Positions 18,165 to 60,868 of a stretch of 63,332 nt of DNA are shown here, one piece after another. Location: positions 1-63,332 of the forward strand of contig JBDRLT010000026.1 in the NCBI GenBank assembly GCA_043812815.1, given 5' to 3'. The stretch is from Candidatus Woesearchaeota archaeon (lineage in GTDB: Archaea > Nanobdellota > Nanobdellia > Woesearchaeales > JAGVZT01). Numbering within the stretch: position 1 is the first letter of the stretch; each line of letters starts with the position of its first letter. Position numbers and translations under genes: made by a program. The notes beneath the pieces were generated by a model. That model was not told the DNA's origin and searched no databases. It was given only the letters and a program-made list of their open reading frames with translations.

Positions 18165-19406
18165 TTACTGAATGATACCGTAACCAATCAGTCTAAACCT
18201 TGAAGCCACTCTGCGAGAAATAGTAACCCTTGAGGAAAGGTCTGCACACACAGGCCTTTTTAGTTTGCATTCCACTACCTTTTTAGCTAAATCCATCACA
18301 ATGCCTGCGGTTGAGCACGAATTGATATTCAACAAAAGGATCTCCCCCTTTTTAATAGGCTCCACCTTTAGATCTTCTTTCGACCCAACAACCCTATCCA
18401 GAAGATGCACTTCCAGCTTGAGGTTGTACCAAACAGGCGGCAACTTTCCTATATTACCAACAACAGATCCTGCCAGCTGATCAGATTTTACAATGGATGG
18501 ATCTAGTAATGTCTGTACCCCTAGGTTCCCCCCTGGTGTAACATTCTTGACAACACAGCCCCCAGTGATAATACTAACAATCTTAGTTGTCAATGGTTCG
18601 AAGAATGTTTTCCCCTCTTTTTCAACTTTTACGCCGGGCTTAATCTCAATCTCCTGGCCTGAAGTTAACTGCCCCTGCACCAAAATACCCCCAAAAACCC
18701 CGCCTTTCATCTTCAAGGGATCCTCACCAGGTTTGTTAATATCAAAAGTTCTGGCCACAAGCATCTGTGGCTCTTTGGTCGGATCCCGCTGAGGTGTCGG
18801 GAATTCCTTTTCTATAGCCTCAATCAAAACATCAATATTTATAAGATGCTGCGCTGATATCGGGATAACCGGTGCATTCTCAAATTTGGTTCCTTTGAGA
18901 AACTCCTTTATTTGCGCATAACTCTTTAATGCCTGGTTCTCATCAACAATGTCTATCTTGTTTTGCACCACAATAATCTTGTCAATCCCTGAGATCTGCA
19001 ATGCCACCAGATGCTCTCTTGTTTGGGGCTGGGGACATTCCTCATTGGCAGCAACAAGCAAAATTGCATAATCCATAATCCTTGCCCCTGACAGCATTGT
19101 GGCCATTAAGCTCTCATGGCCAGGGGCATCAACAAAACTCACTTTTCTGAGCACTTCGGTTTTTACCTTGTGTTCAGGGCAAGTTTCCTGGGTGGTGTAG
19201 GCCTTTGATCCATCGCACTTTGGGCATTTCCGGAAAACTGCATCAGCATACCCTAGTCTAATAGTAATACCCCGCTTAATCTCCTCAGAATGAGTGTCAG
19301 CCCACTTACCAGTTAGCGCCTGCACCAGAGTGGTTTTTCCATGGTCAACATGGCCAATGGTCCCAATATTTATCACTGGTTGTACAGGCTGCTCTGACTT
19401 AACCAT
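18165..19406 (-). CDS. eif2g: Translation initiation factor aIF2 gamma subunit
   Basis: GHVDHGKTT, RGITIRLGY, DAPGHE and NKID motifs; RFRLIGYG C-terminus. Confidence 0.97.
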   Translation of the reverse strand: MVKSEQPVQPVINIGTIGHVDHGKTTLVQALTGKWADTHSEEIKRGITIRLGYADAVFRKCPKCDGSKAYTTQETCPEHKVKTEVLRKVSFVDAPGHESLMATMLSGARIMDYAILLVAANEECPQPQTREHLVALQISGIDKIIVVQNKIDIVDENQALKSYAQIKEFLKGTKFENAPVIPISAQHLINIDVLIEAIEKEFPTPQRDPTKEPQMLVARTFDINKPGEDPLKMKGGVFGGILVQGQLTSGQEIEIKPGVKVEKEGKTFFEPLTTKIVSIITGGCVVKNVTPGGNLGVQTLLDPSIVKSDQLAGSVVGNIGKLPPVWYNLKLEVHLLDRVVGSKEDLKVEPIKKGEILLLNINSCSTAGIVMDLAKKVVECKLKRPVCADLSSRVTISRRVASRFRLIGYGIIQ

Positions 19407-20017
19407 TATTTATTCTCTCCTTGAGCAGACTCCTTGCTATTTTTCGGTTTTTCTGCTGCACCGCCTTCCTTCCTATCAACCTTTTTCGGCTTTTCTGTGC
19501 CGCTATCCTCTTTCTTTTCAGTCTTTTTAGTTTTTTCTGCTGCACTGTCTTCTTTCTTTTCAGTCTTCTTAGTTTTGTCTGTCTTACTCTCTTCCTTCTT
19601 GTCAGCCTTCTTGGATTCCTCTGCTGCACCCTCTTTCTTCTCTTCAGCTGCTTCTTCCACAAGCTTCATTTTGCCTTCTTTGAGCACTTTGAGATTAATT
19701 TGCGAAATCTTGGCATGGATTGCGTTTCCGCAAACTGTTTTCCTCTTCCTCAGTCCAGCTCCCTTTTGGTTCATACCAACCCCACGAGTAATCAGCACAC
19801 GCTTTCTCCCACTTCCAGGCAAATCCTTTCTCATAGGAAAACCGCAATAATCAGAACCCCCACAGATCTCAAATTCATAGCCTGCTAGGCCTATCTTGTC
19901 ACCACTAATCTTATCACCCAACTTTAACCCAAGAAATGCTTTAGCCTCTTCATCCTTAACAACGCGCTGCGCGCATTTACCATTTTTTAACCCGAGTACA
20001 AGTTTGAACTCAGCCAT
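19406..20017 (-). CDS. rps6e: 30S ribosomal protein S6e with a long K/E-rich repetitive C-terminal tail
   Basis: GGSDYCGFPMRKD and RKRKTVCGN motifs; conserved rps6e-eif2g adjacency. Confidence 0.95.
   Translation of the reverse strand: MAEFKLVLGLKNGKCAQRVVKDEEAKAFLGLKLGDKISGDKIGLAGYEFEICGGSDYCGFPMRKDLPGSGRKRVLITRGVGMNQKGAGLRKRKTVCGNAIHAKISQINLKVLKEGKMKLVEEAAEEKKEGAAEESKKADKKEESKTDKTKKTEKKEDSAAEKTKKTEKKEDSGTEKPKKVDRKEGGAAEKPKNSKESAQGENK
19440..19610 (-). repeat. About four degenerate 42-nt (14-aa) tandem repeats in the rpS6e tail
   Basis: ADKKEESKTDKTKK / TEKKEDSAAEKTKK / TEKKEDSGTEKPKK / VDRKEGGAAEKPKN. Confidence 0.75.
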
Positions 20018-20703: not shown

Positions 20704-21285
20704 TCATTTAGTAGCAATTATTCCAGAAATGAATTCTTCAACTTTCTCCCTCAACTTCTCCACATTGTCCTCATTAATAATGGTATAATCAGCCATAGCT
20801 ATCGGTCCGGTCTTATGCGAATTCACAATCTCAGCATAGTCTCTTGACTTCGCTTCCTCCAAAGAATAAGCCCTATAAATTGCTTTTTTATCCTTCTTAG
20901 GGTCATACTTCCTATTAGCCAACCTATTGTATCTAATAGCTGGTTTTGCATAAATGGCTAGCACCACCAACTCATCTCCGAACTTTTCCTTAAGCAGAGT
21001 ATACTCCTCCCAACTGTATAACCCATCAGCAACAACATTTGCCTTGGTTATCAGCTGCTCAAATTTGGGAATAAGAAATTTTGCCATAACAGCCATGCCA
21101 TGCTGCTTGCGCATGTCTTCTCTTACAAACCGCTCATTCTTCTCATTAACCTCTAAACAGCGCCTCTTAACCTCATCCAAAACAGCCTGCCCAAACCTCA
21201 AATACTCAAAACCCTGCTCAACAAAGACTTTTGCTGCCTCGGTCTTGCCACTCCCTGTCATCCCAACAATTGCCACAATCTTCAT
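20704..21285 (-). CDS. UPF0200 nucleotide kinase (dephospho-CoA kinase-like P-loop kinase)
   Basis: IVGMTGSGKT, DGLYSWEE, SRDYAEI and PIAMADYTIIN motifs. Confidence 0.85.
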   Translation of the reverse strand: MKIVAIVGMTGSGKTEAAKVFVEQGFEYLRFGQAVLDEVKRRCLEVNEKNERFVREDMRKQHGMAVMAKFLIPKFEQLITKANVVADGLYSWEEYTLLKEKFGDELVVLAIYAKPAIRYNRLANRKYDPKKDKKAIYRAYSLEEAKSRDYAEIVNSHKTGPIAMADYTIINEDNVEKLREKVEEFISGIIATK

Positions 21286-21419
21286 TTACTTAGCTCCAAA
21301 TGACAATACTTAAATAATTTGTGATTACAAAAAACATGTAATCCCAACTACATTATCAACAACAAATAAATATAAAAACCCGAGTCAATCTATAAATTTC
21401 CTGATTCTACGGTGATAAA

Positions 21420-22121
21420 TTGGTTAAAACCATAATTCTGGGATTTGACGGGAACATTGGTGTTGGTAAAAGTACACTGGTTACTGAGGCTGCCGAATGC
21501 TTACCAGCGATGTTAGATTTCCCGGCATATTCGGTTCCAATAATGGAGGAGGTTGAGAGAAGCAAATATTGGAGACCATATTGCAGGTTTATGAATGCAG
21601 AGTGGAAGCATAACGGCAATTTGGAAAACCGCTTTGTAGTGTATCAATTCCAAACATGGGTTCTTTTTGACCAAAGAAAAAGAATCCAAGAAGCTGTCGA
21701 GAGTGCAAGATCAAGTGATGCACTTGAAGACAAAGTTATGCTTTTATTATTAGACAGAAGCCCGCGCGGTCACAGAGCCATGGCCGATAATTTATTGAAG
21801 CTTGGAATTTTTATTCCAGGGATGTGGGCCCCTTACTTACATGAAGCAGGGATGTCAAGTGGCTATTTGCCGCAGGAAACATTTCTGCTTGATGCAACTG
21901 AAGAAGAACTCATTGATAGAATGCATTCTAGGGATAGACAGGGTGAAGCTGGAATCCCTACTGCTTATTTGGCTGGCATAAGAACAGCGCATAACAGCGT
22001 CTTTGAAGCAGATAAGGTTAAGGTACATACTCTTGATTACCATACATTCGCTCCTTTTCAAGGTGTTTTAGCCCAGATTGCCCCAGTGGTCAATTCCATA
22101 GAACCAATAGAACTATTATGA
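21420..22121 (+). CDS. Divergent deoxynucleoside kinase
   Basis: DGNIGVGKST P-loop; FQ, LLDRS, lid RMHSRDRQGE and YL motifs. Confidence 0.8.
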   Translation: MVKTIILGFDGNIGVGKSTLVTEAAECLPAMLDFPAYSVPIMEEVERSKYWRPYCRFMNAEWKHNGNLENRFVVYQFQTWVLFDQRKRIQEAVESARSSDALEDKVMLLLLDRSPRGHRAMADNLLKLGIFIPGMWAPYLHEAGMSSGYLPQETFLLDATEEELIDRMHSRDRQGEAGIPTAYLAGIRTAHNSVFEADKVKVHTLDYHTFAPFQGVLAQIAPVVNSIEPIELL

Positions 22122-23482
22122 AAGATTTCAAAGTAATAAAAATAGGTGAAGATCCTTACTTAAAAAAGGATATTAATAAGATAATCTTCAAAGAACCGCC
22201 ACAAACCCAGCTGTTTACTGCATCTGATGTTATAATGGGAAATCCAAGTTCTAATATTGCGGTTGCCTTTGTTTACACCTGGAAAGATGATGAACCTCCG
22301 CAAAATATCAAAGAGTTCATGCAAAACCTGTCAAATTATGCATATCTTACCGGGCTGTGGAAGACAACCAACGGAGCAAGATATGTTTTCAGCAATCTCC
22401 TGGCAAATCCGAATGTAAATAAACTTTTTCTACTGGTTTTTGGTCAAAAAGACAATGGTCATCTTCTGGTAGATGCCCTCGAAAACTTCTGGAAAAATGG
22501 AACCAATACTGCAGGAATAATTATCGGTTCCAAAGCCCAAAACCCAAAATTCGAGCAGCTTCCAAGAGAAGCGCTTGAAAGAATAAGACAGCAATGTGAT
22601 TTAGTAATTGTAAGAAATATCAGGGAATTTCCAGAAGTTGAGAAGCTAATTCGGCTAAGTGTTGATGAACCCAGTAGAGGAGCTAACCTGGCTGATTTCT
22701 CCCAGAATATTGAGTTCCTTTCATTGTCAATCAAGAACAACTTGCTTTACGATGACGGTGCAAGATTCAATAACCCAATGCTAGTAGATTTGGCAAAATC
22801 AGCAGGCGATGTCAGCTTTGCAAAGAAACATTATTCAGAAACACTTGGCCAAAGTATCCAAGCCAAGAATCTCGATGATGCACTGCACTCAATTGCAGCT
22901 TTTGTATTCTCACATGGCTCACACCTTCCTGATGAAAGGAATATCCACTTGGTAGAGTGCAGAAGTTTTACAATTACCATCATGGACCCATTGGAAAAAA
23001 TCCCAGAAGGGTTTAGTCAGCAATACATAAACGATTACATAGATGAGTTTATGCATGGCTTAAAACACAAAGAAGACCTTGAATATACATACCATGACAG
23101 AATCTTTGTAAAATGGGGCAACCAACCAGAGAGGGTAATCAAGATGCTCACCAGATCTCCGACAGCTAACAGAAGCAGGAGAATGGTAATATCACTATGG
23201 GATCCGGCATCAGATCTGGAAAACCCTTGTGCACCCTGCCTGGATTTTATTTGGGTTGTGGTTAGAGATGGCAAGTTGGAGTTTCATGTGGTCTTCAGGA
23301 GCCAGCATTTGGCGACCATAACAGAAAATGGCAAATTGATGCAGGGAGAGGGTGCCTTTGTCCCAAATATATTTGGGATAGCCACCTTGCAGGAATTTAT
23401 GGCCAGGCAACTAAAACTTGAAAGAGGCCCATTAGTACTGACAGACTTCTCAGGACATCTTTACATGAGTGGGATTAAATGA
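22118..23482 (+). CDS. Fusion of an MtrA-like corrinoid-binding domain and a thymidylate synthase-like domain
   Basis: N-terminal NLLANPNV...NGHLL...NG...IIGSKAQNP...LPREALERIRQQ (MtrA pattern); C-terminal YTYHDR, SRR..ISLWDP, PC, FRSQH, PN and SGHLY (ThyA pattern). Confidence 0.85.
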   Translation: MKDFKVIKIGEDPYLKKDINKIIFKEPPQTQLFTASDVIMGNPSSNIAVAFVYTWKDDEPPQNIKEFMQNLSNYAYLTGLWKTTNGARYVFSNLLANPNVNKLFLLVFGQKDNGHLLVDALENFWKNGTNTAGIIIGSKAQNPKFEQLPREALERIRQQCDLVIVRNIREFPEVEKLIRLSVDEPSRGANLADFSQNIEFLSLSIKNNLLYDDGARFNNPMLVDLAKSAGDVSFAKKHYSETLGQSIQAKNLDDALHSIAAFVFSHGSHLPDERNIHLVECRSFTITIMDPLEKIPEGFSQQYINDYIDEFMHGLKHKEDLEYTYHDRIFVKWGNQPERVIKMLTRSPTANRSRRMVISLWDPASDLENPCAPCLDFIWVVVRDGKLEFHVVFRSQHLATITENGKLMQGEGAFVPNIFGIATLQEFMARQLKLERGPLVLTDFSGHLYMSGIK

Positions 23483-24156
23483 AAGGTAAACTTATTGTTA
23501 TTGATGGTTTGGATGGCTCAGGGAAATATACCCAATTCAAATTATTGTCAAAAAGACTAGAAGAAGAAGGCTACTCTGCATCAACATTTGACTTCCCTCA
23601 ATACGACAAACCATTTGGTGCCATGGTCGGCCGATATCTCAAAGGAGAGTTCGGTGATATAGACCAAGTTGAAATTGAAGTGGCAACAATGCTGTATGCA
23701 CTCGACAGGTACTCTGTTAAACAAGAAATAAAAAAGGAGCTGGTTGATGGTAAAATTGTGGTTCTCAATAGATATACTCCCTCAAATCTGGGATTTCAAG
23801 GAGCTAAGTTCAGAGGTAAGGAGCGCCAGAAATTCCTTAAGTGGATTGACGCTATGGAATCCAGACTACCTCAGCCTGACCTAATAATCTTTCTAGATGT
23901 CCCACGAAAGTTCACCAGACTATTAATGGGAAACAAAGACCTAAGAGAATATCTAGATGGCAAGAAAGAGGATATCCATGAAAAAAATGATCCTTATCAG
24001 CTCGAAGTGGAAGGCTTGTACAGAAAATTATCAGAAGAAAGAAAAAACTGGAGAAGGGTTGATTGTGTCAGCGCTGATAGTCTCCTTAGTATAGATGAAG
24101 TCCACAATAAAGTTTGGGAAGTTGTAGAACAACATTTAAACAACCATGGAGAGTAA
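23479..24156 (+). CDS. tmk: Thymidylate kinase, copy 2
   Basis: IDGLDGSGK, FPQY, LYALDR, NRYTPSN, PDLIIFLDVP and DIHE motifs. Confidence 0.9.
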   Translation: MKGKLIVIDGLDGSGKYTQFKLLSKRLEEEGYSASTFDFPQYDKPFGAMVGRYLKGEFGDIDQVEIEVATMLYALDRYSVKQEIKKELVDGKIVVLNRYTPSNLGFQGAKFRGKERQKFLKWIDAMESRLPQPDLIIFLDVPRKFTRLLMGNKDLREYLDGKKEDIHEKNDPYQLEVEGLYRKLSEERKNWRRVDCVSADSLLSIDEVHNKVWEVVEQHLNNHGE

Positions 24157-24203
24157 GTTAGTGTTGTGAGGGGATGAATTCGTGAAGAATTCCTTACTCT
24201 CCA
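24147..24203. terminator. Stem-loop between convergent genes
   Basis: TGGAGAGTAAG (24147-57) pairs with CTTACTCTCCA (24193-203); inner GAATTC-GTGAA-GAATTC hairpin. Confidence 0.45.
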
Positions 24204-24212
24204 CAGTTGTGA

Positions 24213-25226
24213 TCATGAAACAGCTATAATATACATAGCTGTAGCCCACCCAAGAGGGGAATTCTCATTGTGAGTATTTGTGTCAGCATAGTAAAGCTCA
24301 GGCAACTCAAATTTACCATTCATCGCAGCGTGCGTCCTATCAATGTAAAATCTGTACTTCTCCAGATTACCCATATCCTTGTAGATCTTAGCCAGCCAAG
24401 GAAAACCAAAGCACCACTCAGCTTCCCTTCCATTGCTGTAGTAAGAATCTCCAAAATACCTCACCACACCTTTGTCCCTAACAAGGTTCTTCTCAACATT
24501 CCACAATATCTGAGACTTTTGGCTTTCATTCACAATATTAAATGGAAAAATCAGGCTAAGCAAAGCCAGATCCACATCTCTTGAAGCTGACTCTTTCGGC
24601 AAGAGGACGCTAAGGGCTTTTTCTCCGTATTCGACCATTACTGGTGGTACAAATACAATAGGTGAGATCGCTTTCAGGCCAGCAACACAAGCACCGATGC
24701 TGCTTGCGTGGAGCTCTTCTTCATTCTCCCAAATACCGTTGTCTGGATCCTGCCAGTATTCAATACTCGCCAAGTAGTACACAAGCTTCTGCAAAATCCT
24801 AACATCATCATCATTCCTGAACACTCTTATACCTTGCTTAAACAGATCACCGACCTTAAACAAAAATGCGCCTATAGCATCATTCTGCTTATTACCCCAA
24901 GGCTCCTTAAATTCACTAAGTGACTCAGGATCATATCTAGCATGTATGTACTCAAAATCAAATTGCGGTTTGTTCTTTAGGGCTAGCTCTATCTTCCACT
25001 CATATTTCAGAAAAACATCAAAAAGAGCAGCATAAGTCCTTTTTACAGCTTCAATATCCTTAACCTGTTCAAGGCCTAACGCCTCGTAGATATTATCCCT
25101 AATCCAAGCCACATTGTAACCTGTCCTTACCGTTTTGTTTGAGGCTGCAAATAATCCAGAACGGTACTGAAGCCTCTTTAGCTTGTTTGCACATATCCTT
25201 TTGAAAAGTTTCTTAATCATCATCAT
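24213..25226 (-). CDS. Glycoside hydrolase family 15 (glucoamylase/phosphorylase-kinase-like) protein
   Basis: WIRD, QNDAIG, DNGIWEE-like, HASSIGAC, RYFGDSY, PELY and PLGW motifs. Confidence 0.88.
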   Translation of the reverse strand: MMMIKKLFKRICANKLKRLQYRSGLFAASNKTVRTGYNVAWIRDNIYEALGLEQVKDIEAVKRTYAALFDVFLKYEWKIELALKNKPQFDFEYIHARYDPESLSEFKEPWGNKQNDAIGAFLFKVGDLFKQGIRVFRNDDDVRILQKLVYYLASIEYWQDPDNGIWENEEELHASSIGACVAGLKAISPIVFVPPVMVEYGEKALSVLLPKESASRDVDLALLSLIFPFNIVNESQKSQILWNVEKNLVRDKGVVRYFGDSYYSNGREAEWCFGFPWLAKIYKDMGNLEKYRFYIDRTHAAMNGKFELPELYYADTNTHNENSPLGWATAMYIIAVS

Positions 25227-27410: not shown

Positions 27411-29982
27411 TCTTTGCCAAAACCATCTGATGCATCCGTCGCAGAAACTCAAGCCGCTCTTCCATCTTCATAATATCAGCATAGCCCTGGGTAATAAGAT
27501 TAAAAGCAAACGGCGAAGGTATCTTTGTATCAATCACAACCACCCTAATAGCCTTGCTGTCAATAGCCTCCAGCACCTTTTTAGCATTGGTGATATCCAT
27601 CAGATCCTCTAGCACCTCTCTTCTGGCTTCCTTTAAAATCGAAAAGTCAGGATTGATTCTCTTAACAGCGCTCATTAGTATCATTGAGCTAACCTGCTGC
27701 CTGCCAACCCTTTTGGCATGCCCCCTGTATATCCTGAGAATCATCAAAGCACGCGCCGCACAATGTCTAAACCTTCTCTTCAGAACCTCTGTTTTCTCAA
27801 TAGCCACCTTCATGATTAGACCAATCTTTTCAGCCTTTACCACATTAACCGCATTCAAAATACTTAATTTCTTTGGCGGACAAATATAGAAGCCATTGTC
27901 ATTAATACCAATCTCCACATCCTTGTGCAAAACCTTTGAAACAGCCAATCCGTAAGCTCTGCTTAAACAATCATTCACTCTTCTCCCATAGAGGCTGTGA
28001 AATACATAGTATATACCCCTCTCATCTTGGTAATGCTCTATCACCAGTTTTTTATCGTGCGGAATCTCAGCATACAAAAACTGCTCTCGGAAATACTCAT
28101 AAATGGATAAAGCCCCATTCTGGTCCACATACAAATAGCTTAGAATAAATTCGATTATTTCCTCCTTCTTCAGTTTGTTGGCAAATTTATCTTCCATTAA
28201 CCTCCTGAACCTACCAATCTCCAGAGCAAGATCAAAACTCAATGGAAGCATCTCAGAAAACCACCTTGGAACAGTCGGAGGCCTAAAGCTGCTCGCTTTC
28301 ACTTGAGCAACCATCCCCCTTGTGAACAGAAACTCGTACGTGTCTCCCCCCAAAACAAAAACATCTCCTCTTTTCAATTTCTCTAAGAATGCCTCATCTA
28401 TTGTGCCAATTAGCTGGTCACCAATCTTCACTGTAACCTTAGTTTCGTCAGGAATAGTGCCAATATTGGTCATATAAAGCACCCGGGCCAACTTACCCCT
28501 CCGTCCTATCATTCCAGTAGCTTCGTCGAACCATATTTTTGCGTAAATATTCCTGTCTTCCAAAGAGGCAAACCTGCCAGCCAAATAATTTATAATCTCA
28601 AGAAAATCTGCTCTCTCAAGGGTATGATAACAATAGCTCTGTTTCACCAAGCCAAAGAGATCATCAATACTAATTTTTTCAGATATCGCAATGCCAAAAA
28701 TCTGCTGGCTCAGCACATCCAAAGCATTTAATGGGATATGGATCTTGTCAATCTTTTTCTCAATGGCACTTTTCAACAGCACAGAACACTCAACAAGGTC
28801 ATCCCTGTCAAGCACAATAATTCTGCCTTTGGTTGTATCATGCAACTGATGGCCACTCCTCCCAATACGCTGCAAAGCTCTGGCCACTGACTTGGGCGAT
28901 CCAAGCAGCAGCACTAAATCAATAAAACCAATATCTATCCCCAGCTCAAGACTTGTTGAACACACAACAACCTTGACTGTTCCATCACGCAGCCTGCTCT
29001 CAATTGAATGCCTGTGCTCTTTGCTTAATGAACCGTGGTGCGCTCCGATATTCAAATTAGTGTAGTGTTTGGGAAACTTCTCTTTCAGATGGTGGACCAC
29101 TCTCTCTGTTGCAGCTCGCGTATTCGTAAAGATTAGTGTAGTCTTATGCTCCTGGATAAGGTTATCCATAAGCACATACATCGCATGATGCATCTGCTCA
29201 TGCCCTGTGTTAATTAAATCATGCACAGGACTCAACACCTTCAAATCCATTTTCTTAATAAATTGCACATCAATTATCTTGCAGGGTCTAACCTCGCCAT
29301 TCTCGTATCCTGTCAAAAATTTCGCCACCTCCAGCAATGGGGCCACAGTTGCGCTGAGCCCAACACGGCATATATGATTGCTAAGCCTCTGCAGCCTCTC
29401 AAGACTCAATGATAGGTGCACCCCCCTCTTGCTATCAGCAAGTGCGTGAATCTCATCCACCACACACCACTCTACACCTGTAAGCAATCCACTAAATCTG
29501 GAACTGCTCAGAATAATCCCCAAGGACTCGGGTGTTGTTATCAAAATATGCGGAGGATTCTTTAACATCTTAGACTTCTCGTATGCAGTGGTATCACCAG
29601 TCCTCACAGCTACTCTAATCCCTAGCTTTTTGCCAGCAAGCGCCTCAATCTCCTTTAACGGCTCTTCAAGATTAACCTCAATATCATAATTTAGCGCTTT
29701 GAGCGGAGAAATATACACACAATATACTTTGTCTTGCAAAATCCCCTTCTCTGCAGTATCCACCAACTCATTTAGAATGGATAAAAAAGCAGTAAGAGTC
29801 TTCGTAGCGCCAGTTGGAGCAGAGATCAGCACATTCTGCCTTGCATGGATCTCTATAACCCCATAAAGCTGAGGAAGGGACAACTCACTGAAACGAGTAA
29901 AAAACCATTTTTTAACCACCGAGTGTAATATTCTCTCAATAGCTTCTGCAGAGTCAGGCACTTCCTTGAACACCACCATCAT
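27394..29982 (-). CDS. lhr: Lhr-family ATP-dependent SF2 helicase
   Basis: APTGATKT, SPLKAL, TTPESL, DEIH, LSAT, HHGSL, LELGID and QRIGRSGH motifs. Confidence 0.95.
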   Translation of the reverse strand: MMVVFKEVPDSAEAIERILHSVVKKWFFTRFSELSLPQLYGVIEIHARQNVLISAPTGATKTLTAFLSILNELVDTAEKGILQDKVYCVYISPLKALNYDIEVNLEEPLKEIEALAGKKLGIRVAVRTGDTTAYEKSKMLKNPPHILITTPESLGIILSSSRFSGLLTGVEWCVVDEIHALADSKRGVHLSLSLERLQRLSNHICRVGLSATVAPLLEVAKFLTGYENGEVRPCKIIDVQFIKKMDLKVLSPVHDLINTGHEQMHHAMYVLMDNLIQEHKTTLIFTNTRAATERVVHHLKEKFPKHYTNLNIGAHHGSLSKEHRHSIESRLRDGTVKVVVCSTSLELGIDIGFIDLVLLLGSPKSVARALQRIGRSGHQLHDTTKGRIIVLDRDDLVECSVLLKSAIEKKIDKIHIPLNALDVLSQQIFGIAISEKISIDDLFGLVKQSYCYHTLERADFLEIINYLAGRFASLEDRNIYAKIWFDEATGMIGRRGKLARVLYMTNIGTIPDETKVTVKIGDQLIGTIDEAFLEKLKRGDVFVLGGDTYEFLFTRGMVAQVKASSFRPPTVPRWFSEMLPLSFDLALEIGRFRRLMEDKFANKLKKEEIIEFILSYLYVDQNGALSIYEYFREQFLYAEIPHDKKLVIEHYQDERGIYYVFHSLYGRRVNDCLSRAYGLAVSKVLHKDVEIGINDNGFYICPPKKLSILNAVNVVKAEKIGLIMKVAIEKTEVLKRRFRHCAARALMILRIYRGHAKRVGRQQVSSMILMSAVKRINPDFSILKEARREVLEDLMDITNAKKVLEAIDSKAIRVVVIDTKIPSPFAFNLITQGYADIMKMEERLEFLRRMHQMVLAKISLKK

Positions 29983-30080
29983 AAAAAATAGCCACTATTT
30001 CTTTAAAAGTTTATGTGTAAGAGTAATGTGGTGGCCAGCATCACCGCAAAGATTTAAGTAGTTGAATTCACCACTCCAAA

Positions 30081-31134
30081 ATGCATAATCCTGAAGTAAA
30101 CCGTATGTTAGGCAAAAATGGTAATAACACATATTTTTTGGGGGTTTTCTATAATAATCTAGACCCATGACTGCTTAGTGATTTTACAGGGCAACATAGG
30201 TGGATTGATATGGAAAAACCAGAGCACCAAGCTACAGCATGCGGTCTACTTGTTAGAAGATCAATAGAAGCAAGAGGTGACAGAAACCTAACTGGATTGG
30301 AGATGCAAAAAAAGACACCCTGGCCTGAATTGATGGCAGTAGATCCAGCTCTTTTGGGATATATTCTGCTTGGGCGTGACCTTAGGGTTATTGCGCCTAC
30401 TGATCCCAGAATAGGGACTAACCAGCCAAATTTGGTGCAAGAAGCACTTGAGCCTGGCGTAAAGGATGGGCTTGGTCTCTGCAATAGGGGCGCCACTACA
30501 AGCTAATCGTCCTATAGGTTATAACTCACCAGAGATTAGTTAATTGGCAATTGAACAACGCTTGGCTGGTTCAGATAAAAGAGTTCTCCCTGGACTTCCA
30601 GAGAAATATGAAAATACACTGATGCCCTACTTAACCCAGGGCCATTCTATTTGGACATCGTTAAGAGAAAATACTAGGCCTAGCGAACGAGGTGTTATCT
30701 CAATGGTATTAGAAGGCTCTAGTTTTGTAATATTGAAAATAATTGATGAAATCGTAAACAAGGAATACGAAATAAGGGCTTATGGTATTGAAGAGACAAC
30801 TGGTTGCTTTCATATGCTCCAAAAGGACACTGCAACAGAAAAACTGATTATTGTAGCAACTGCGGGTGGGGAGCCTGTCGAATTGGGATAGTGTTCCGCA
30901 GCTAGTCCAGCAGCAGGCTGCTTTTATCTACTGACTACGGTACTATCAAAAAGTGCACCAAATGAACCAGTTAGCTTCACATACTCATTTCACTTACCTA
31001 CTGGCTCGGATGTGATTAAACAAAGTGCAGGTTCAAGGGTAGAGAATTTGGTCAGAGCCTTCCAACACCTTGGTCTGCACCAATTCGGAAGGTCCCTTAC
31101 CAGAACTGACCTCAAAAGTGCTCTTAAACCCTAA
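30081..31134 (+). pseudogene. Disrupted orphan gene (~350 codons) spanning ORFs 30210..30506 and 30544..30891
   Basis: TATA at ~30051-30060 and ATG at 30081; TGA 30168, frameshift at ~30465, TAA 30541, TAG 30889; the frame then stays open to TAA 31132-34, which overlaps the convergent lemA stop. Confidence 0.65.
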
Positions 31135-31679
31135 AATTCAACCTTCACTGGCTTTTTCTCCTTCTCATCCATCTCAAAGAAAGGCTTTTCCTTGAAATTA
31201 AACAGATTTCCTATAATATTCCCTGGAAATCGTTCGACCGAGTTATTGTAATTTAACACCGAATCATTGAAAAACTGCCTTGCATACGCAATCTTACTCT
31301 CAATTCCAGACAATTCTTCTTGCAGCATCAGGAAATTTTCATTGGCTTTTAACTGAGGGTAGGCTTCAGCTACAGCAAACAATCTGCCTAACGCAGAAGT
31401 CATAGCAGCATTGGCTTTTGACTTAGCCAAGATATCCCCTGCTTTAACCAAAGCATTTCTTGCCTGCGAAACTTCTGTGAAAACCCCTTTCTCATGCTTT
31501 GCATACCCTTTCACAGTCTCCACAAGATTGGGCACCAAATCAAACCTTTTCTTCAACTGCACATCTATCTGGCTCTCTGCATTACCCATACGGTTCTGCA
31601 AGACAATAAAATTGTTGTAAGTGCTAATCAACCAAAGGGCAATAATCACAACCAATCCTATTAATATATATCCAATCAT
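31131..31679 (-). CDS. lemA: LemA family protein
   Basis: IDVQLKKRFDLVPNLV, AEAYPQLKANENF and ARQFFN motifs. Confidence 0.97.
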   Translation of the reverse strand: MIGYILIGLVVIIALWLISTYNNFIVLQNRMGNAESQIDVQLKKRFDLVPNLVETVKGYAKHEKGVFTEVSQARNALVKAGDILAKSKANAAMTSALGRLFAVAEAYPQLKANENFLMLQEELSGIESKIAYARQFFNDSVLNYNNSVERFPGNIIGNLFNFKEKPFFEMDEKEKKPVKVEF

Positions 31680-31796
31680 ACAACCACCTCAACACCAACA
31701 AAACTAAGCAAGTATATAAAATTTACTCTTACTAAGCAAATATGCCTAACTTTGATTTCAAAACCCTTAAATATTCATTCTGAATATGACACTAAA

Positions 31797-33542
31797 ATGA
31801 AAAAAGAGGTAGCCTTTATTCTTCTTGTATTACTAATTACCCCTATAGTGAATGCCAAAAAGGGGCATATGCAACTTTTGGCTATTAGTCAGACTAAAGA
31901 GGGTCTGAGGGGGGCTGGCGCAGACCTTGACCTTGAGATTAAACCGGGAATTGGCAGAGTATTTATCTCCACTTTTCCTCTAACTAAAGTAGACACTCAA
32001 CTGTCATTTAGGATTGCCAAGGAGTATGCCTGTGACTTTCTTAGCCTGGAATGCAACAATTATGATTTTTTCTATGAGGTTCGCTCAGATGCGCCAATAG
32101 TGGGAGGACCATCAGCCGGTGCAGCTGCCACAGCTTTGACAATAATTGTATTAGAAGACTTGACAGCAGATCCCTCTGCAACCGTGACAGGCACTATTGA
32201 ATCCGGTGGAATGATAGGTCCGGTAGCAGGCATTAAGGAAAAGATTGAAGCAGCCCAAAGATTGGGGCTCAGAACAGTGCTCATCCCGGAAGGCAAAAGA
32301 TATCAAAAAGATAACAACTCAAACTCAACAATTGATCTTGTTGAGTATGGTGCTGAGCTTGAGATTTCAGTTGCAGAAGTAATTGAAATCAGAGATGTGA
32401 TTTTACTGTTAACCGGGTTCGAGTTTGCAGCTGAAAGTGACATAATAAATATTGACTCGCAATACACAGCAACAATGATGCAAATTGCAAATGGGCTGTG
32501 TGAACGCTCAAAAACATTGCTTATGGATATTAACATCAGTTACATCAAACCGAACAATTTGCAGTTGGAAGAAGCAGCAAACCTAACAAGCAGTGCAACA
32601 AATGCGCTGGAAAATGGAGAGTACTACGCAGCAGCATCATACTGTTTTGGTGCTAATGTTAAATACCAATATTTGAGGCTGGCTTCCAAGGATCTGTCAA
32701 TAGGAAGAATAGAGGAGATGATTGCGGAGACCCAAGAGTTTATTCTAACATCAAAGCAGGGCATTACTGGGTTTCAATATGCCACAATTACAGATCTCCA
32801 AACCTATCTTATAGTAAGTGAAAGGCTTAAAGAGGCGCAGCAATACTTGGAAGAGTCCAGTGACGAGCTGGAGTACAATAACACTGACAATGCTGTCTAT
32901 AATCTTGCTTTTGCAGTTGAGCGCTGGAACTCAGCAGTATCCTGGTCCCAATTTTTCGGTATGGATGGTAGACAATTTGCAATCAATGACAAAAGTCTCA
33001 GGCAGCTGTGCATTCAAAAAGTCTCAGAAGCAACAGAGAGATTGGAATACACCAAATCTTTTATCTCGGTTAACATGGATGAGTTATCAAAAGATCTGGA
33101 CGTGGCTGAACAAGACATGATGCTTGGGAATAATGAGCTATGCATTTTTCGAGCCTCAAAAGTTAAGGCAAGGGCCAGCCTAATCCTGAGCTCTATAAGC
33201 ATTAGTAAAGATGAAGTGGAAGAATTTCTCCAAAAGAAACTGACCTTAGCCAGAAGGACCATTGTCAAAGAAACCAGAAGAGATATCTTCCCTATTTTGG
33301 GTTACAGCTACTATGAGTATGCAGAGAGCCTAAGCCATTCAGATCCGTTTTCTTCCTTGCTTTATGCAGAATTGGCGCTTGAGCTCAGCAGTTTTGACAT
33401 GTATTTCAAAAACACAAGACTCTTTAGCTGGAGCTTTGATTTGGGCACATTTACCTTAATTCTCGGGAGTATGCTTGTAGGGTATGCACTGGCTGTGGTG
33501 ATCTTCAGATGGGAATTGCAAAAGAAAAAGCGGAAAAAATGA
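31797..33542 (+). CDS. Secreted, membrane-anchored S16 (Lon-C-like) serine protease
   Basis: Signal peptide; GGPSAG Ser and GIKEK Lys dyad; C-terminal TM followed by a basic tail. Confidence 0.88.
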   Translation: MKKEVAFILLVLLITPIVNAKKGHMQLLAISQTKEGLRGAGADLDLEIKPGIGRVFISTFPLTKVDTQLSFRIAKEYACDFLSLECNNYDFFYEVRSDAPIVGGPSAGAAATALTIIVLEDLTADPSATVTGTIESGGMIGPVAGIKEKIEAAQRLGLRTVLIPEGKRYQKDNNSNSTIDLVEYGAELEISVAEVIEIRDVILLLTGFEFAAESDIINIDSQYTATMMQIANGLCERSKTLLMDINISYIKPNNLQLEEAANLTSSATNALENGEYYAAASYCFGANVKYQYLRLASKDLSIGRIEEMIAETQEFILTSKQGITGFQYATITDLQTYLIVSERLKEAQQYLEESSDELEYNNTDNAVYNLAFAVERWNSAVSWSQFFGMDGRQFAINDKSLRQLCIQKVSEATERLEYTKSFISVNMDELSKDLDVAEQDMMLGNNELCIFRASKVKARASLILSSISISKDEVEEFLQKKLTLARRTIVKETRRDIFPILGYSYYEYAESLSHSDPFSSLLYAELALELSSFDMYFKNTRLFSWSFDLGTFTLILGSMLVGYALAVVIFRWELQKKKRKK

Positions 33543-57983: not shown

Positions 57984-58149
57984 ATATTGCTTAGTTCAAG
58001 GAATTTTGGAAGTCCTCAGAAAATTGATGTGGACTCTTACCTCGAAAATAGTGGGATGTGGCTTGTGAACATTTGGCTAAAAATAATATCAATTATTTCA
58101 GGCAAAAAGTATCTGGACAAAAATAGAGATTGTTACCTCGCGTATTTTC

Positions 58150-58608
58150 TTATAGAATTGCAAAAATATGCTTGAAGAATGTCCTTGCGTGTTCCATACT
58201 CTCTTTTGCTGGTTCTTTGTTTGCTTGGGGCATTGTCCTGTAAGTAAATTCTCCTCGCTTTTTCTTCTCCTCTTTGAAAAGTCCAAGCAGGTATTCTGCT
58301 CTAACTAATGCTTCTCGGTATATTTTGAGGAGTTCAACATCCAGTTCTCCACTTTCAACAAAATTTCTGAATTCTGCAAATACCTTTTTATGTTCTTCTG
58401 GAGCAGAAACATCAATTCCTTTCTTTGCAAGATATGCTTTTGCGCCATAGAATATACTGTAATAGCTATGTGCAATAACTGCACTGTAATATGTCTCAGG
58501 ATCATTGACTCTGAATGTCTCTTTTTGTATGGTTGGGTCTTCACTAATTGCCAAAATTATGCCTGCTATCTCGTTTTCTGCCCTATGAATATACAATTTT
58601 GAATCCAT
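58150..58608 (-). CDS. HEPN-domain protein (toxin of an MNT-HEPN module)
   Basis: HSYYSIFYGAKAYL, EEHK and RGEFTY motifs; overlaps the MNT gene. Confidence 0.88.
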   Translation of the reverse strand: MDSKLYIHRAENEIAGIILAISEDPTIQKETFRVNDPETYYSAVIAHSYYSIFYGAKAYLAKKGIDVSAPEEHKKVFAEFRNFVESGELDVELLKIYREALVRAEYLLGLFKEEKKKRGEFTYRTMPQANKEPAKESMEHARTFFKHIFAIL

Positions 58609-59209: not shown

Positions 59210-59236
59210 CTAAAATACCTTTTTTATAGTATAATC

Positions 59237-59254
59237 ATACCTAAATTAAGGTAT
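59237..59254. promoter_or_regulatory. Palindromic operator in the MNT-HEPN promoter
   Basis: ATACCT-AAATTA-AGGTAT next to BRE/TATA GAAAGATTTATATA on the minus strand. Confidence 0.5.
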
Positions 59255-59335
59255 TATATAAATCTTTCGATGTTTTGAGCAAATACTGGTTTTTGTTACA
59301 TCTCCTGTTTGAAAATAGTAATCAAACCGAATCAT
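59246..59335 (-). pseudogene. Probable truncated HEPN N-terminus
   Basis: ATGA-coupled to the upstream MNT; MIRFDYYFQTGDVTKTS then runs into the promoter of the next module. Confidence 0.55.
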
Positions 59336-59850: not shown

Positions 59851-59876
59851 GTATAATTAGTTATACAGTTGTATAT

Positions 59877-60830: not shown

Positions 60831-60868
60831 GTTTTACCGATGTCAACTGATACTAAATCAGTAGACGT

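What the first reader, a model, noticed from the sequence alone, without database searches (positions are those of the whole stretch)
21420..24156. dNK - MtrA::ThyA fusion - TMK operon: candidate cobamide-linked thymidylate or modified-pyrimidine pathway
Seen: three ATGA-coupled genes. The middle protein's first ~190 aa follow the MtrA pattern (NLLANPNV...GH...NG...IIGS...P...LPREALERIRQQ), including the GH histidine. Its C-terminus is a ThyA fold with the catalytic PC, the RR phosphate arginines, the dUMP-selecting Asn (VPN) and HxY. Established: in methanogen MtrA that His is the axial cobamide ligand of a methyl carrier, while ThyA uses methylene-THF. Inference: a DPANN archaeon with no other mtr genes in view may have repurposed the corrinoid domain to deliver a methyl group to dUMP, or to make a modified pyrimidine. 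The dNK would supply the monophosphate and a dedicated TMK would process the product. Related domain pairings may already be annotated elsewhere; I could not check this.
Basis: partly seen in the sequence, partly recalled or inferred. Interest (0 to 1): 0.9.

Follow-up and report, generated by a model that had tools for sequence, protein, structure and literature searches.

The report
MtrA-like domain fused to thymidylate synthase
A small-genome archaeon encodes a thymidylate synthase carrying an extra domain of the kind that holds vitamin B12 in methanogens, which hints at an undescribed, untested way of making the DNA base thymine.

Summary
Three genes overlap by ATGA: a deoxynucleoside-kinase-like gene, a 454-aa fusion and a dTMP kinase. 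The fusion's N-terminal half matches and models as MtrA, the corrinoid-binding methyl carrier. Its C-terminal half is a short archaeal ThyA with every dUMP-binding and catalytic residue.

About 120 relatives share this architecture. In 44 of 44 aligned, the MtrA cobalt-ligand His and most cobalamin-contact residues are invariant. MtrA Glu54 is always Thr. The ThyA cofactor pocket is rebuilt: E. coli Asp169 becomes His, a second His is new, and 12 residues are inserted.

The three carriers of the window's own family lack SHMT and DHFR, and the window's genome also lacks FolD. There the fusion is the only cellular thymidylate synthase candidate with a catalytic Cys. The five other carriers also hold ThyX, or a thyA-folA-glyA set, together with SHMT.

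Against a corrinoid role, the genome shows no other B12 enzyme, importer or methyl-loading enzyme among those searched. Sister subfamilies lack the His.

Best reading (0.4): a thymidylate synthase that receives its one-carbon unit as a methyl group from a domain-bound corrinoid. Nothing biochemical is shown. Nine literature searches found no description.

The parts
20704..21285 (-). 193-aa P-loop kinase (AAA_18), divergently transcribed from the operon. Homologues sit next to the fusion in other genomes.
   Evidence: Pfam AAA_18, E 1.6e-11. NCBIfam gives only weak hits, to PRK08356 and to archaeal (d)CMP kinase. By tblastn, homologues lie beside the fusion in L005, L009, L012 and L028 and in L123 (62% identity) and L114 (54%).
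21286..21419 (.). A/T-rich divergent intergenic region, presumed to be the promoter region of the operon.
   Evidence: Sequence read. The promoter role is inferred and was not tested.
21420..22121 (+). Deoxynucleoside-kinase-like gene (233 aa, TTG start). It overlaps the next gene by ATGA.
   Evidence: (PF01712, E 4e-11). No NCBIfam hit. The positional homologue in G060 has 25.5% identity, E 5.6e-11.
22118..23482 (+). 454-aa MtrA-like::ThyA fusion, called 'type A' in this report.
   Evidence: AF2 model: pLDDT 91.7, pTM 0.87.
22118..22690 (+). N-terminal MtrA-fold domain (residues 1-191).
   Evidence: PDB sequence hits: 5LAA at E 6.2e-14 and 4.4e-19 with the family profile. Domain model pLDDT 86.2. 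The top 7 Foldseek PDB hits are all MtrA, TM 0.76-0.79 by target for six of them.
22460..22462 (+). Codon of His115, equivalent to the cobalt ligand His84 of MtrA.
   Evidence: Alignment to 5LAA. The role of His84 is taken from PMC4915002. Invariant in 44 of 44 sequences.
22748..22768 (+). Invariant linker motif Y-D-D-G-x-R-F (residues 211-217). It resembles the D-P-G-A-F segment at the end of the MtrA soluble domain.
   Evidence: Invariant columns Y211, D212, G214 and R216. The MtrA segment is visible in the 5LAA alignment. Type D fusions carry Y-D-P-G-A-Y/F. The homology of these motifs is inferred.
22853..23479 (+). ThyA-type domain (residues 246-454).
   Evidence: TIGR03283, E 5e-27, residues 246-450. 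Foldseek hits to ThyA and MilA, TM 0.53-0.58 by target. hhalign to canonical ThyA gives probability 96.7.
23237..23239 (+). Codon of the catalytic Cys374 (E. coli Cys146).
   Evidence: invariant in 44 of 44.
23306..23308 (+). Codon of His397, which stands where ThyA has the pterin-binding Asp169.
   Evidence: Invariant in 44 of 44. All other subfamilies compared have Asp, or Glu in one case.
23315..23350 (+). Approximate position of a 12-residue insertion, with invariant G-E-G-A, in the loop that lines the folate site of ThyA.
   Evidence: 19 residues lie between H397 and N417 in 44 of 44 sequences, against 7 in E. coli and in the other subfamilies.
23479..24156 (+). dTMP kinase (225 aa), whose start overlaps the end of the fusion by ATGA.
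   Evidence: PF02223, E 2e-23. NF005923 119.7 bits and TIGR00041 81.4 bits, both below their cut-offs. Homologues lie directly downstream of the fusion in G060 (63% identity), G200 (61%) and G084 (37%).

Best explanation
The operon supplies and processes thymidylate: deoxynucleoside kinase, then the fusion (dUMP to dTMP), then dTMP kinase.

The fusion is the cell's own thymidylate synthase. Its ThyA half binds dUMP and activates it through Cys374 in the classical way. That part follows from conserved residues.

The one-carbon unit does not come from free methylene-tetrahydrofolate recycled by SHMT and DHFR. The N-terminal MtrA-type domain holds a corrinoid with His115 as the lower ligand. It swings a methyl-Co(III) group into the remodelled cofactor pocket. 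There the C5 carbanion of the Cys-dUMP adduct takes the methyl group, leaving Co(I). No hydride step is needed and no dihydrofolate is formed. All of this paragraph is inferred.

How Co(I) is re-methylated is unknown. It is the largest gap in the model.
For: **N-domain is MtrA-like and keeps the corrinoid-binding residues**
- Pfam, PDB sequence search and fold search all assign it to MtrA.
- The cobalamin contacts listed for 5LAA in PMC4915002 map as follows in 44 of 44 family members: His84 to H115, Asp17 to D37, Thr53 to T83, Asn55 to N85, Gly57 to G86 and Asn64 to N93, all invariant. Lys52 maps to K or R, and Val61 to V, A or I.
- In a scan of 1.84 billion cluster representatives with the N-domain, 83 of 96 aligned rows (the 95 hits plus the query itself) carry His at that column.
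- On a quick tree, type A groups with the His-bearing MtrA-like proteins and not with the His-less ThyA fusions (98% SH-aLRT).

**ThyA half is intact for dUMP but altered at the pterin site**
- R126', R127', C146, R166, S167, N177 and H207 equivalents are invariant; the Y209 equivalent is Tyr in 43 of 44.
- D169 becomes His, the Gly after the Y94-type Tyr becomes His326, and there is a 12-residue insertion. These changes occur only in type A and its two outliers among the 33 sequences compared.

**Genome context**
- The genome has class III RNR and dCMP deaminase, so a thymidylate synthase is needed.
- PF00303 matches only this gene.
- The only ThyX lies beside a phage-type DNA polymerase gene (phrog_405, E 5.9e-75).
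- SHMT, DHFR, FolD and Pterin_bind were not found.

**Comparison of the 8 full-length type A carriers among 301 sampled genomes**
- G000, G060 and G200 have no SHMT and no DHFR. Besides the phage-side ThyX in G000, they have no other thymidylate synthase with a catalytic Cys.
- The other 5 all hold SHMT together with a canonical ThyA or ThyX.
- G073, a family member without the fusion, has ThyX plus SHMT.

**The pairing recurs elsewhere**
- Other His-bearing MtrA::ThyA fusions (type D) have MtrA scores of 132-146 bits.
- Full-length relatives occur in records titled Ca. Methanoperedens, Saccharibacteria and Aenigmarchaeota. Matches cut by a contig end occur in Desulfurococcaceae and Archaeoglobaceae records.
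Against: **No sign of corrinoid use elsewhere in the genome** (stated completeness 100%). Not found:
- B12-binding PF02310
- class I/II RNR
- PduO adenosyltransferase
- FecCD/BtuC permease
- MtrH
- MttB
- Pterin_bind/MeTr

So no importer and no enzyme to load the methyl group is in view. ECF-type B12 transporters and SAM-dependent loading were not tested.

**The His network is incomplete.** MtrA Glu54, the partner of the His in the H-bond relay, is Thr in 44 of 44. Tyr18 is Val or Ile, and Ile111 is Asn.

**Sister subfamilies lack the His.**
- Type B has Ser at the His position in 10 of 10 sequences read.
- Type C also has no His there.
- So an MtrA-like domain can sit on ThyA without a His ligand.

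**The N-domain may have a role of its own.** Truncated or degenerate relatives keep the N-domain and the linker motif but have lost the ThyA catalytic residues (L020, L022, P0122-P0128).

**Weak independence of the key comparison.** The three carriers without SHMT and DHFR belong to one family, so they count as roughly one independent observation. Four other carriers hold a complete thyA-folA-glyA set, adjacent to the fusion in G202.

**No geometry.** I had no model coordinates, so the position of His115 relative to Cys374 is unknown.
Confidence: 0.4

Rival explanations
1. It is an ordinary pterin-dependent thymidylate synthase that uses methylene-H4folate or another pterin taken from a host. 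The MtrA-like domain no longer binds a corrinoid. It serves another purpose: structure or oligomerisation, regulation, or recycling of the oxidised pterin in place of the missing DHFR, in analogy with protozoan DHFR-TS.
For: - Types B and C share the architecture but lack the His. They carry PF14251, a domain otherwise found at the C-terminus of dihydropteroate-synthase-like proteins (TIGR00284 match). That links the module to pterin enzymes.
- 8 of 10 type B carriers lack DHFR. Of those eight, G199 and G070 have no second ThyA match and no ThyX yet do have SHMT. So a DHFR substitute is needed there.
- The window's genome has no B12-handling gene among those searched.
- Glu54 is replaced by Thr.
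Against: - The cobalamin-contact residues are under strict conservation in type A. That is hard to explain if the pocket is empty.
- The pterin-binding Asp169 is lost and the folate loop is rebuilt, and this happens precisely in type A.
- The window's genome has no source of methylene-folate among those tested: SHMT, FolD and Pterin_bind are absent.
- The N-domain has no DHFR similarity. It gives no PF00186 hit, and the fold hits are MtrA only.
Confidence: 0.28
2. The N-domain does bind a corrinoid, but not as a methyl donor. It acts either as a B12 sensor that switches the enzyme, or as a redox centre supplying the two electrons for reduction of the exocyclic methylene intermediate. In the second case the carbon comes from a methylene donor or formaldehyde and no dihydropterin is made, following the logic of ThyX.
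For: - The conservation of the corrinoid site is the same as for the main reading.
- DHFR is absent in carriers that lack a canonical ThyA.
- ThyX was reported to use formaldehyde directly. I saw only the search listing and the start of the abstract of PMC8316439.
Against: - MtrA-family proteins are known only as methyl carriers (PMC4915002).
- No low-potential reductase partner is evident, and none was searched for.
- The reading does not explain the loss of the pterin-binding Asp.
Confidence: 0.12
3. The enzyme makes a modified pyrimidine nucleotide, such as 5-hydroxymethyl-dUMP, rather than dTMP. The neighbouring kinases then process that product.
For: - ThyA paralogues do this in phages (recalled knowledge).
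- The CMP hydroxymethylase MilA is among the best fold matches.
- The cofactor pocket is atypical.
- Five of 8 carriers also hold a conventional thymidylate synthase.
- The genome has a second TMK-like gene.
Against: - Asn177 is kept, so a cytosine substrate is unlikely.
- The conserved neighbour is a typical dTMP kinase.
- In G060 and G200 no other Cys-bearing thymidylate synthase was found.
- Where a canonical thyA-folA-glyA operon is present, the ThyA half can decay, as in G084. That looks like redundancy, not a separate function.
- No relative was found in viral contigs.
Confidence: 0.1
4. The gene is an inactive relic or pseudoenzyme.
For: - Degenerate relatives exist.
- TIGR03283 scores below its equivalog cut-off.
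Against: - 77 invariant columns across sequences only 45-63% identical, including every catalytic residue.
- The frame is intact, and the gene sits in a conserved operon with translational coupling.
Confidence: 0.03

Closest known systems
Cytoplasmic MtrA homologue / soluble domain of MtrA (PDB 5LAA, 5L8X; Wagner et al. 2016, PMC4915002)
   Same: - Same Rossmann-type fold (TM 0.77, rmsd 2.9 A, 28% identity).
- His84 and most of the nucleotide-tail contacts are conserved.
- There is no transmembrane helix, as in the cytoplasmic homologues.
   Different: - It is fused to ThyA.
- Glu54 becomes Thr, Tyr18 becomes Val or Ile, and Ile111 becomes Asn.
- It has an extra N-terminal beta-hairpin.
- No MtrH is found in the genome; the other Mtr subunits were not searched for.
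- Cobalamin binding is untested.
Methanogen-type short ThyA (NCBIfam TIGR03283; nearest solved chains by profile are 9IQC and 9IQU)
   Same: - The same roughly 200-residue core, covered end to end (model positions 2-195 of 201).
- The same catalytic Cys, Arg pair, Arg-Ser, Asn and His-x-Tyr.
   Different: - It scores 94.7 bits against a cut-off of 174.55.
- Asp169 becomes His, a new His326 appears, and 12 residues are inserted in the folate loop.
- It is fused to an MtrA-like domain.
- I do not know the source organism of 9IQC.
Sister fusions: type B/C (MtrA-like + ThyA + PF14251 DUF4346) and type D (His-bearing MtrA + canonical-pocket ThyA)
   Same: - The same N-to-C order of an MtrA-like domain and ThyA.
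- The neighbours are often TMK or the AAA_18 kinase.
   Different: - Types B and C lack the His and add DUF4346.
- Type D keeps the His but has Ala at the Glu54 position, and keeps Asp169 with the normal loop length.
- On the quick N-domain tree types A and D are not sisters.
Protozoan bifunctional DHFR-TS
   Same: An N-terminal accessory domain and a C-terminal thymidylate synthase in one chain. Both deal with the cofactor side of the reaction.
   Different: - The N-domain is not a DHFR (no PF00186 hit; MtrA fold).
- Whole-chain superpositions have rmsd above 20 A.
Cobalamin-dependent methyl transfer (MetH, the Mtr complex) and flavin-dependent ThyX as the known alternative thymidylate synthase
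   Same: - The proposed chemistry uses methyl-Co(III)/Co(I) cycling, as in MetH and Mtr.
- Like ThyX, it would avoid dihydrofolate and DHFR.
   Different: - The acceptor would be a carbon nucleophile on dUMP, not a thiolate.
- No loading module is present.
- There is no homology to ThyX.
- The comparison to MetH chemistry rests on recalled knowledge.

Membership tests
ThyA thymidylate synthase (PF00303 / TIGR03283) | Profile score over the curated cut-off | tested here: inconclusive
   PF00303 scores 27.9 bits against a cut-off of 24.3, which is met. The TIGR03283 equivalog scores 94.7 against 174.55, which is not met.
ThyA thymidylate synthase (PF00303 / TIGR03283) | Catalytic Cys (E. coli C146) and the dUMP phosphate and uracil binders R126', R127', R166, S167, N177, H207, Y209 | tested here: met
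   Alignment to E. coli ThyA. The Cys, Arg, Ser, Asn and His equivalents are invariant in 44 of 44; Y449 is Tyr in 43 of 44.
ThyA thymidylate synthase (PF00303 / TIGR03283) | Pterin-binding Asp169 and a normal-length 170-176 loop | tested here: not met
   His397 stands at that position and 12 residues are inserted. The role of Asp169 is recalled from the ThyA literature.
ThyA thymidylate synthase (PF00303 / TIGR03283) | Converts dUMP to dTMP | not testable with these tools
   Only context is available. It is the sole PF00303 gene in the genome, it is operonic with dTMP kinase, and dCMP deaminase and NrdD are present.
MtrA (PF04208), corrinoid-binding methyl carrier | Profile score and fold | tested here: met
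   PF04208 scores 52 bits against a cut-off of 25. The top 7 Foldseek PDB hits are all MtrA. The TIGR01111 equivalog is not met, at 49.1 against 249.15.
MtrA (PF04208), corrinoid-binding methyl carrier | Cobalt-ligating His84 | tested here: met
   H115 aligns with it and is invariant in 44 of 44.
MtrA (PF04208), corrinoid-binding methyl carrier | Glu54 of the His-Glu-backbone hydrogen-bond relay | tested here: not met
   Thr84 in 44 of 44. The relay is described in PMC4915002.
MtrA (PF04208), corrinoid-binding methyl carrier | Membrane anchor and partnership with the other Mtr subunits | tested here: not met
   A ThyA domain stands where the C-terminal helix would be. MtrH is not found in the genome. 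The other Mtr subunits were not searched for.
MtrA (PF04208), corrinoid-binding methyl carrier | Binds cobalamin | not testable with these tools
   No cobalamin ligand is offered by the folding tools, and no model coordinates were available.
Bifunctional DHFR-TS | N-terminal DHFR domain (PF00186) | tested here: not met
   Pfam gives no DHFR hit on the protein and none in the genome. The N-domain fold is MtrA.
dCMP hydroxymethylase-type ThyA paralogues | Asp in place of Asn177, which gives cytosine specificity | tested here: not met
   Asn417 is invariant. The specificity rule is recalled. A dUMP hydroxymethylase cannot be excluded from sequence alone.
dTMP kinase (PF02223) | Profile score | tested here: met
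   PF02223 scores 83.5 bits against a cut-off of 27. The equivalog models fall just below or below their cut-offs.
Deoxynucleoside kinase (PF01712) | Profile score | tested here: met
   43.5 bits against a cut-off of 27. There is no NCBIfam match, and substrate specificity is unknown.

The most novel reading that the evidence does not exclude
This would be a third mechanistic class of thymidylate synthesis. A ThyA-type active site would methylate dUMP with an intact methyl group handed over by a covalently fused, MtrA-type corrinoid domain. No methylene-folate, no hydride transfer and no DHFR or SHMT would be needed.

Related fusions in records titled Methanoperedens, Saccharibacteria and Aenigmarchaeota, with contig-cut matches in Archaeoglobaceae and Desulfurococcaceae records, could then be variations of the same B12-dependent route.
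Probability: 0.33. Interest if true: 0.9.

Novelty: new variant of a known kind. Interest (0 to 1): 0.7.

Why it matters
Only two ways of making thymidylate are known, ThyA and ThyX, and both draw on methylene-folate. What many archaea use as the C1 donor for thymidylate is still unsettled. PMC9012536 calls ThyA cofactor use in methanogens hard to predict (passages seen).

A widespread, uncharacterised fusion of ThyA with the only known non-canonical B12-binding fold gives that question a concrete candidate that can be expressed.
- If the corrinoid reading is right, it adds a new reaction type for cobalamin: C-methylation of a nucleotide by a polar route.
- It would also explain how folate-poor symbionts make DNA.
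- If it is wrong, the His-less sister forms with DUF4346 still point to an unknown solution for ThyA without DHFR.

Tried and rejected
- RNA evidence: no RNA holder was listed for window 21300-24300.
- Viral origin: a scan of viral contigs with alignment A1 gave 13 pattern matches, none confirmed as a relative.
- Complex prediction was not used, because no protein-protein binding is claimed.

**Analyses that did not deliver**
- Whole-chain fold search: the matches to protozoan DHFR-TS have rmsd of 21-22 A and reflect only the TS half. I rejected them as evidence for a DHFR-like N-domain.
- hhalign of the type A ThyA domain against canonical ThyA aligned only the C-terminal half. So equivalents of E. 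coli E58, W80 and W83 were not established. The MAFFT placement for that part is not reliable.
- A ThyA-domain tree was prepared but never built, because my motif-based cutting failed for several rows. Only the N-domain tree exists. It is the quick method with 44 rows that I chose; C_L027 was dropped for lack of an HMM hit. It leaves the relation of types A and D unresolved.

**An idea I dropped**
I first read [quoted passage not shown]. I dropped it after reading the sequences:
- The short ThyA-like proteins of G060 and G200 lack the catalytic Cys and the Asn.
- The ThyX of G000 lies beside a phage-type polymerase gene.

**Literature**
Nine searches found no paper on an MtrA-ThyA fusion or on DUF4346. 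About 1.7 million PMC articles and the subscription journals are not searched.

What I saw of each paper:
- PMC4915002: abstract and outline, found passages, and the whole of section 6.
- PMC13473441: one passage.
- PMC9931769 and PMC9012536: found passages only.
- PMC8316439: search listing and the start of the abstract only.

Supplements were closed. The supplementary alignments of non-methanogen MtrA homologues in PMC4915002 might list these fusions.

**Recalled, from no call**
- The roles of the E. coli ThyA residues.
- The Asn/Asp specificity rule.
- MetH chemistry.
- Polar C-methylation by a cobalamin enzyme.
- Corrinoid proteins without a protein axial ligand.

**Unpublished genomes**
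- The tallies include G242.
- Those include G243.
- Those include G302.
- No named claim rests on any of them.

**Subsets handed to calls**
- 44 of the 120 listed proteins.
- 10 of 95 hits.
- 10 proteins.
- 33 sequences of my choice.

**Limits of the neighbour comparison**
Loci L004-L015 have only 1.5 kb flanks, so a missing neighbour there means nothing.

Full report
**What is there**

The window holds three co-directional genes at 21420-22121, 22118-23482 and 23479-24156. Each junction is a 4-base ATGA overlap.

Pfam assigns them as follows:
- Gene 1: deoxynucleoside kinase (PF01712, E 4e-11).
- Gene 2: two domains, MtrA (PF04208, E 8.6e-14, residues 71-178) and thymidylate synthase (PF00303, E 1.6e-6, residues 335-451).
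- Gene 3: dTMP kinase (PF02223, E 2e-23).

NCBIfam's methanogen-type ThyA model covers residues 246-450 end to end but scores below its equivalog cut-off. A P-loop kinase of the AAA_18 type is transcribed divergently upstream.

**The N-terminal half is an MtrA domain**

- By sequence it matches the cobalamin-bound cytoplasmic MtrA homologue 5LAA at E 6.2e-14 as a single sequence and 4.4e-19 with the family profile.
- A model of residues 1-239 has pLDDT 86.2.
- Its seven best PDB fold matches are all MtrA chains. 5LAA gives TM 0.77, rmsd 2.9 A and 28% identity. The eighth hit has E 2e-3 and TM 0.31.
- The full-length model is confident: pLDDT 91.7 and pTM 0.87. I had no coordinates, so the mutual position of the two active sites is unknown.

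**The corrinoid site**

Wagner et al. (PMC4915002) describe the MtrA site as follows. I read section 6 in full and found passages elsewhere.
- His84 is the cobalt ligand.
- A His84-Glu54-Ile111 hydrogen-bond relay supports it.
- The nucleotide tail contacts Asp17, Lys52, Thr53, Gly57 and Asn64.
- Asn55 binds a propionamide.
- Tyr18 and Val61 sandwich the base.

These residues map as follows, using the alignment and a 44-sequence alignment of the family (44 of the 120 listed homologues).

| MtrA residue | Equivalent in the fusion | State in the 44 sequences |
|---|---|---|
| His84 | H115 | invariant |
| Asp17 | D37 | invariant |
| Thr53 | T83 | invariant |
| Asn55 | N85 | invariant |
| Gly57 | G86 | invariant |
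| Asn64 | N93 | invariant |
| Lys52 | K82 | K or R |
| Val61 | V90 | V, A or I |
| Glu54 | T84 | always Thr |
| Tyr18 | V38 | Val or Ile |
| Ile111 | N142 | always Asn |

An invariant Y-D-D-G-x-R-F motif in the linker resembles the D-P-G-A-F segment that ends the MtrA soluble domain. The paper suggests that the adjoining juxtamembrane segment helps to hold the cofactor. The link between the two motifs is my inference.

The pocket is therefore under strong selection and looks like a corrinoid pocket with an altered His environment. Binding itself cannot be tested with these tools.

**The C-terminal half**

Alignment to E. coli ThyA gives the residue numbers directly.

| E. coli ThyA | This protein |
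|---|---|
| R126 / R127 | R354 / R355 |
| C146 | C374 |
| R166 / S167 | R394 / S395 |
| N177 | N417 |
| H207 / Y209 | H447 / Y449 |

All are invariant in 44 of 44, except that Y449 is Tyr in 43 of 44. The domain should therefore bind and activate dUMP.

The cofactor side is different:
- Asp169 is His397.
- His147 is Leu.
- The Gly that follows the Tyr94-type tyrosine is His326.
- 19 residues instead of 7 separate position 169 from Asn177, with an invariant G-E-G-A.

I compared 33 sequences covering all subfamilies, a stand-alone short ThyA and canonical ThyA. These changes occur only in this subfamily and, in part, in two outliers.

**The wider family**

The pairing of an MtrA-like domain with ThyA is common.
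- 124 close homologues were found. Source names, where given, are Woesearchaeota, Nanoarchaeota or Nanobdellota, and the annotations read 'thymidylate synthase'.
- In a sample of 301 genomes of the phylum, 52 have a PF04208 match, one per genome.

I distinguish four forms.

| Type | Architecture | His84 position | ThyA pocket |
|---|---|---|---|
| A (this gene) | MtrA-like + ThyA | His | remodelled |
| B (10 sequences read) | MtrA-like + ThyA + PF14251 (DUF4346), about 470-490 aa | Ser in 10 of 10 | normal R-S-x-D...N |
| C | as B but longer, 551-626 aa | no His | normal Asp169 spacing, but the Arg pair reads K-A |
| D | strong MtrA domain (132-146 bits) + ThyA | His, with Ala at the Glu54 position | normal |

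- Full-length type D relatives occur in records titled Ca. Methanoperedens, Saccharibacteria and Aenigmarchaeota. Matches cut by a contig end occur in Desulfurococcaceae and Archaeoglobaceae records.
- The MtrA-like domain alone is far more widespread.
- A scan of 1.84 billion cluster representatives with the type A N-domain found 95 proteins, only 7 below E 1e-30. His stands at the ligand column in 83 of 96 aligned rows (the 95 hits plus the query itself).
- On a quick N-domain tree, types B and C fall on one side. Type A, type D and the free MtrA-like proteins fall on the other (98% SH-aLRT). A and D are not resolved as sisters.
- Truncated relatives keep the N-domain and linker motif but have lost the ThyA catalytic residues.

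**Is it the cell's thymidylate synthase?**

The genome is 1.19 Mb in 55 contigs, with stated completeness of 100%.
- It has a class III ribonucleotide reductase match and a dCMP deaminase. So dUMP is made and a thymidylate synthase is needed.
- PF00303 and PF04208 each match only this gene.
- One ThyX exists on contig C23. It lies next to a split bacterial-type polymerase gene that matches phage family phrog_405 at E 5.9e-75, and next to other phage-like ORFs. It probably belongs to a virus or provirus.

Among the 301 sampled genomes, 8 carry a full-length type A gene, at 53-57% identity to the window's N-region in the other seven. They split cleanly.

| Genome(s) | Other thymidylate synthase | DHFR | SHMT |
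|---|---|---|---|
| G072, G202, G232, G295 | canonical ThyA of about 290 aa, clustered with DHFR (and with SHMT in G072, G202 and G232); the set lies directly downstream of the fusion in G202 | yes | yes |
| G113 | ThyX, next to SHMT | no | yes |
| G060, G200 | only a 217-aa ThyA-like protein lacking the catalytic Cys and the Asn | no | no |
| G000 (the window) | only the phage-side ThyX | no | no |

G000, G060 and G200 all belong to the window's own family. G073, a member of that family without the fusion, has ThyX and SHMT.

In G084 a canonical thyA-folA-glyA operon is present, and there the ThyA half of the type A-like protein has decayed. That looks like redundancy.

The dTMP kinase follows the fusion directly in G060 (63% identity), G200 (61%) and G084 (37%). 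The AAA_18 kinase precedes it in G060 and G202.

I conclude, with about 0.8 confidence, that the fusion is a working thymidylate synthase. In this family it works without SHMT and DHFR. The three genomes are close kin, so this is roughly one independent observation.

**Mechanism**

The most economical reading joins three facts: a conserved corrinoid-type pocket, a dUMP-activating site whose pterin-binding features are replaced, and the absence of the enzymes that make methylene-folate and recycle dihydrofolate.

A methyl group held on Co(III) is already at the oxidation level of the product. Attack by C5 of the Cys-dUMP adduct would give dTMP and Co(I) without a hydride transfer and without dihydrofolate. 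This is inference, and I give it 0.4.

The weak points are real.
- The genome shows no B12-binding domain (PF02310), class I/II RNR, PduO adenosyltransferase, FecCD permease, MtrH, MttB or Pterin_bind domain. Uptake and re-methylation are therefore unexplained.
- Glu54 is lost.
- Types B and C show that the architecture can exist without the His.

Some corrinoid proteins hold the cofactor without a protein axial ligand (recalled). So the His-less forms do not exclude a corrinoid, but they do not support one either.

**Rivals**

- Pterin-dependent enzyme with a non-corrinoid accessory domain (0.28). DUF4346 is shared with dihydropteroate-synthase-like proteins (TIGR00284 match). 8 of 10 type B carriers lack DHFR, and two of them have SHMT and no other thymidylate synthase. 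That suggests the module may stand in for DHFR.
- Corrinoid used as a sensor or reductant (0.12).
- Modified-pyrimidine synthase (0.1).
- Relic (0.03).

**Novelty**

The architecture is visible in databases. JGI names it 'thymidylate synthase/tetrahydromethanopterin S-methyltransferase subunit A'. The ESM Atlas holds clusters with both families.

Nine full-text searches found no paper that describes or tests it. [quoted passage not shown]

I file it as a new variant of a known kind. If the corrinoid mechanism is right, it would be a third class of thymidylate synthesis.

Noticed in passing
G000 contig C23:30491-34549 (locus L003 covers 29054-32623): The genome's only ThyX lies beside a bacterial-type PHP/DnaE polymerase gene split into two ORFs (347 and 648 aa). 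That gene matches phage family phrog_405 at E 5.9e-75. A VRR-NUC-like small ORF follows. The contig may be a provirus or a co-binned virus.
   Followed up: partly
G000 contig C19:3089-4840: The class III ribonucleotide reductase (NrdD) match, E 2.6e-194, is read through one TGA and one TAG. This could be a frameshift, an intein or insertion, a recoding event or a broken gene. A dCMP deaminase lies next to it at C19:1530-1889.
   Followed up: no
G000 contig C49:14158-15402: A second TMK-like gene (26% identity to the operon's TMK) is fused to a C-terminal domain carrying a HAD-type D-x-D-x-T motif (414 aa).
   Followed up: no
L121 (G060), L111 (G200), L122 (G113), L110 (G202): A family of ThyA-like proteins of about 217-223 aa. 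In G060 and G200 they lack the catalytic Cys, and in G113 and G202 the Cys is shifted. Ser or Thr replaces the uracil-binding Asn in the two aligned (G060, G113). In G060 and G113 a conserved 165-193-aa ORF precedes them. They are probably not thymidylate synthases.
   Followed up: partly
L016, L017, L018 (G103, G287, G003): Proteins of about 800 aa, of which I name only the recognisable parts. They have a His-less MtrA-like N-domain. A PF14251 (DUF4346) region lies in the middle in two of the three. A weak ThyA-type region follows, and then a long C-terminal part with no family match.
   Followed up: no
L025-L027 (type C fusions): In these MtrA-like + ThyA + DUF4346 proteins the Arg-Arg pair that binds the dUMP phosphate reads K-A in my alignment. 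The substrate or the dimer contact may therefore differ.
   Followed up: no
L032:4321-5451 (Saccharibacteria record): A 376-aa ORF that I judged by eye to look like a dCTP-deaminase-type protein lies directly upstream of a 552-aa type D fusion. The assignment was not checked with any family search.
   Followed up: no
window 19406-20017 (-): A 203-aa ORF with a long Lys/Glu-rich repetitive C-terminal tail lies directly downstream of a translation-GTPase-like gene (18165-19406). ORFs on the opposite strand over the repeat are probably spurious.
   Followed up: no
window 58001-62000: G+C drops to 0.33-0.35, against about 0.40-0.43 in the rest of the window.
   Followed up: no
ESM Atlas clusters: MtrA-like domains also occur fused to the PF04060 Fe-S domain in Chloroflexota, and in a cluster half of whose placed members are viruses (Uroviricota). 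The scores are below 0.9, so these are leads only.
   Followed up: no
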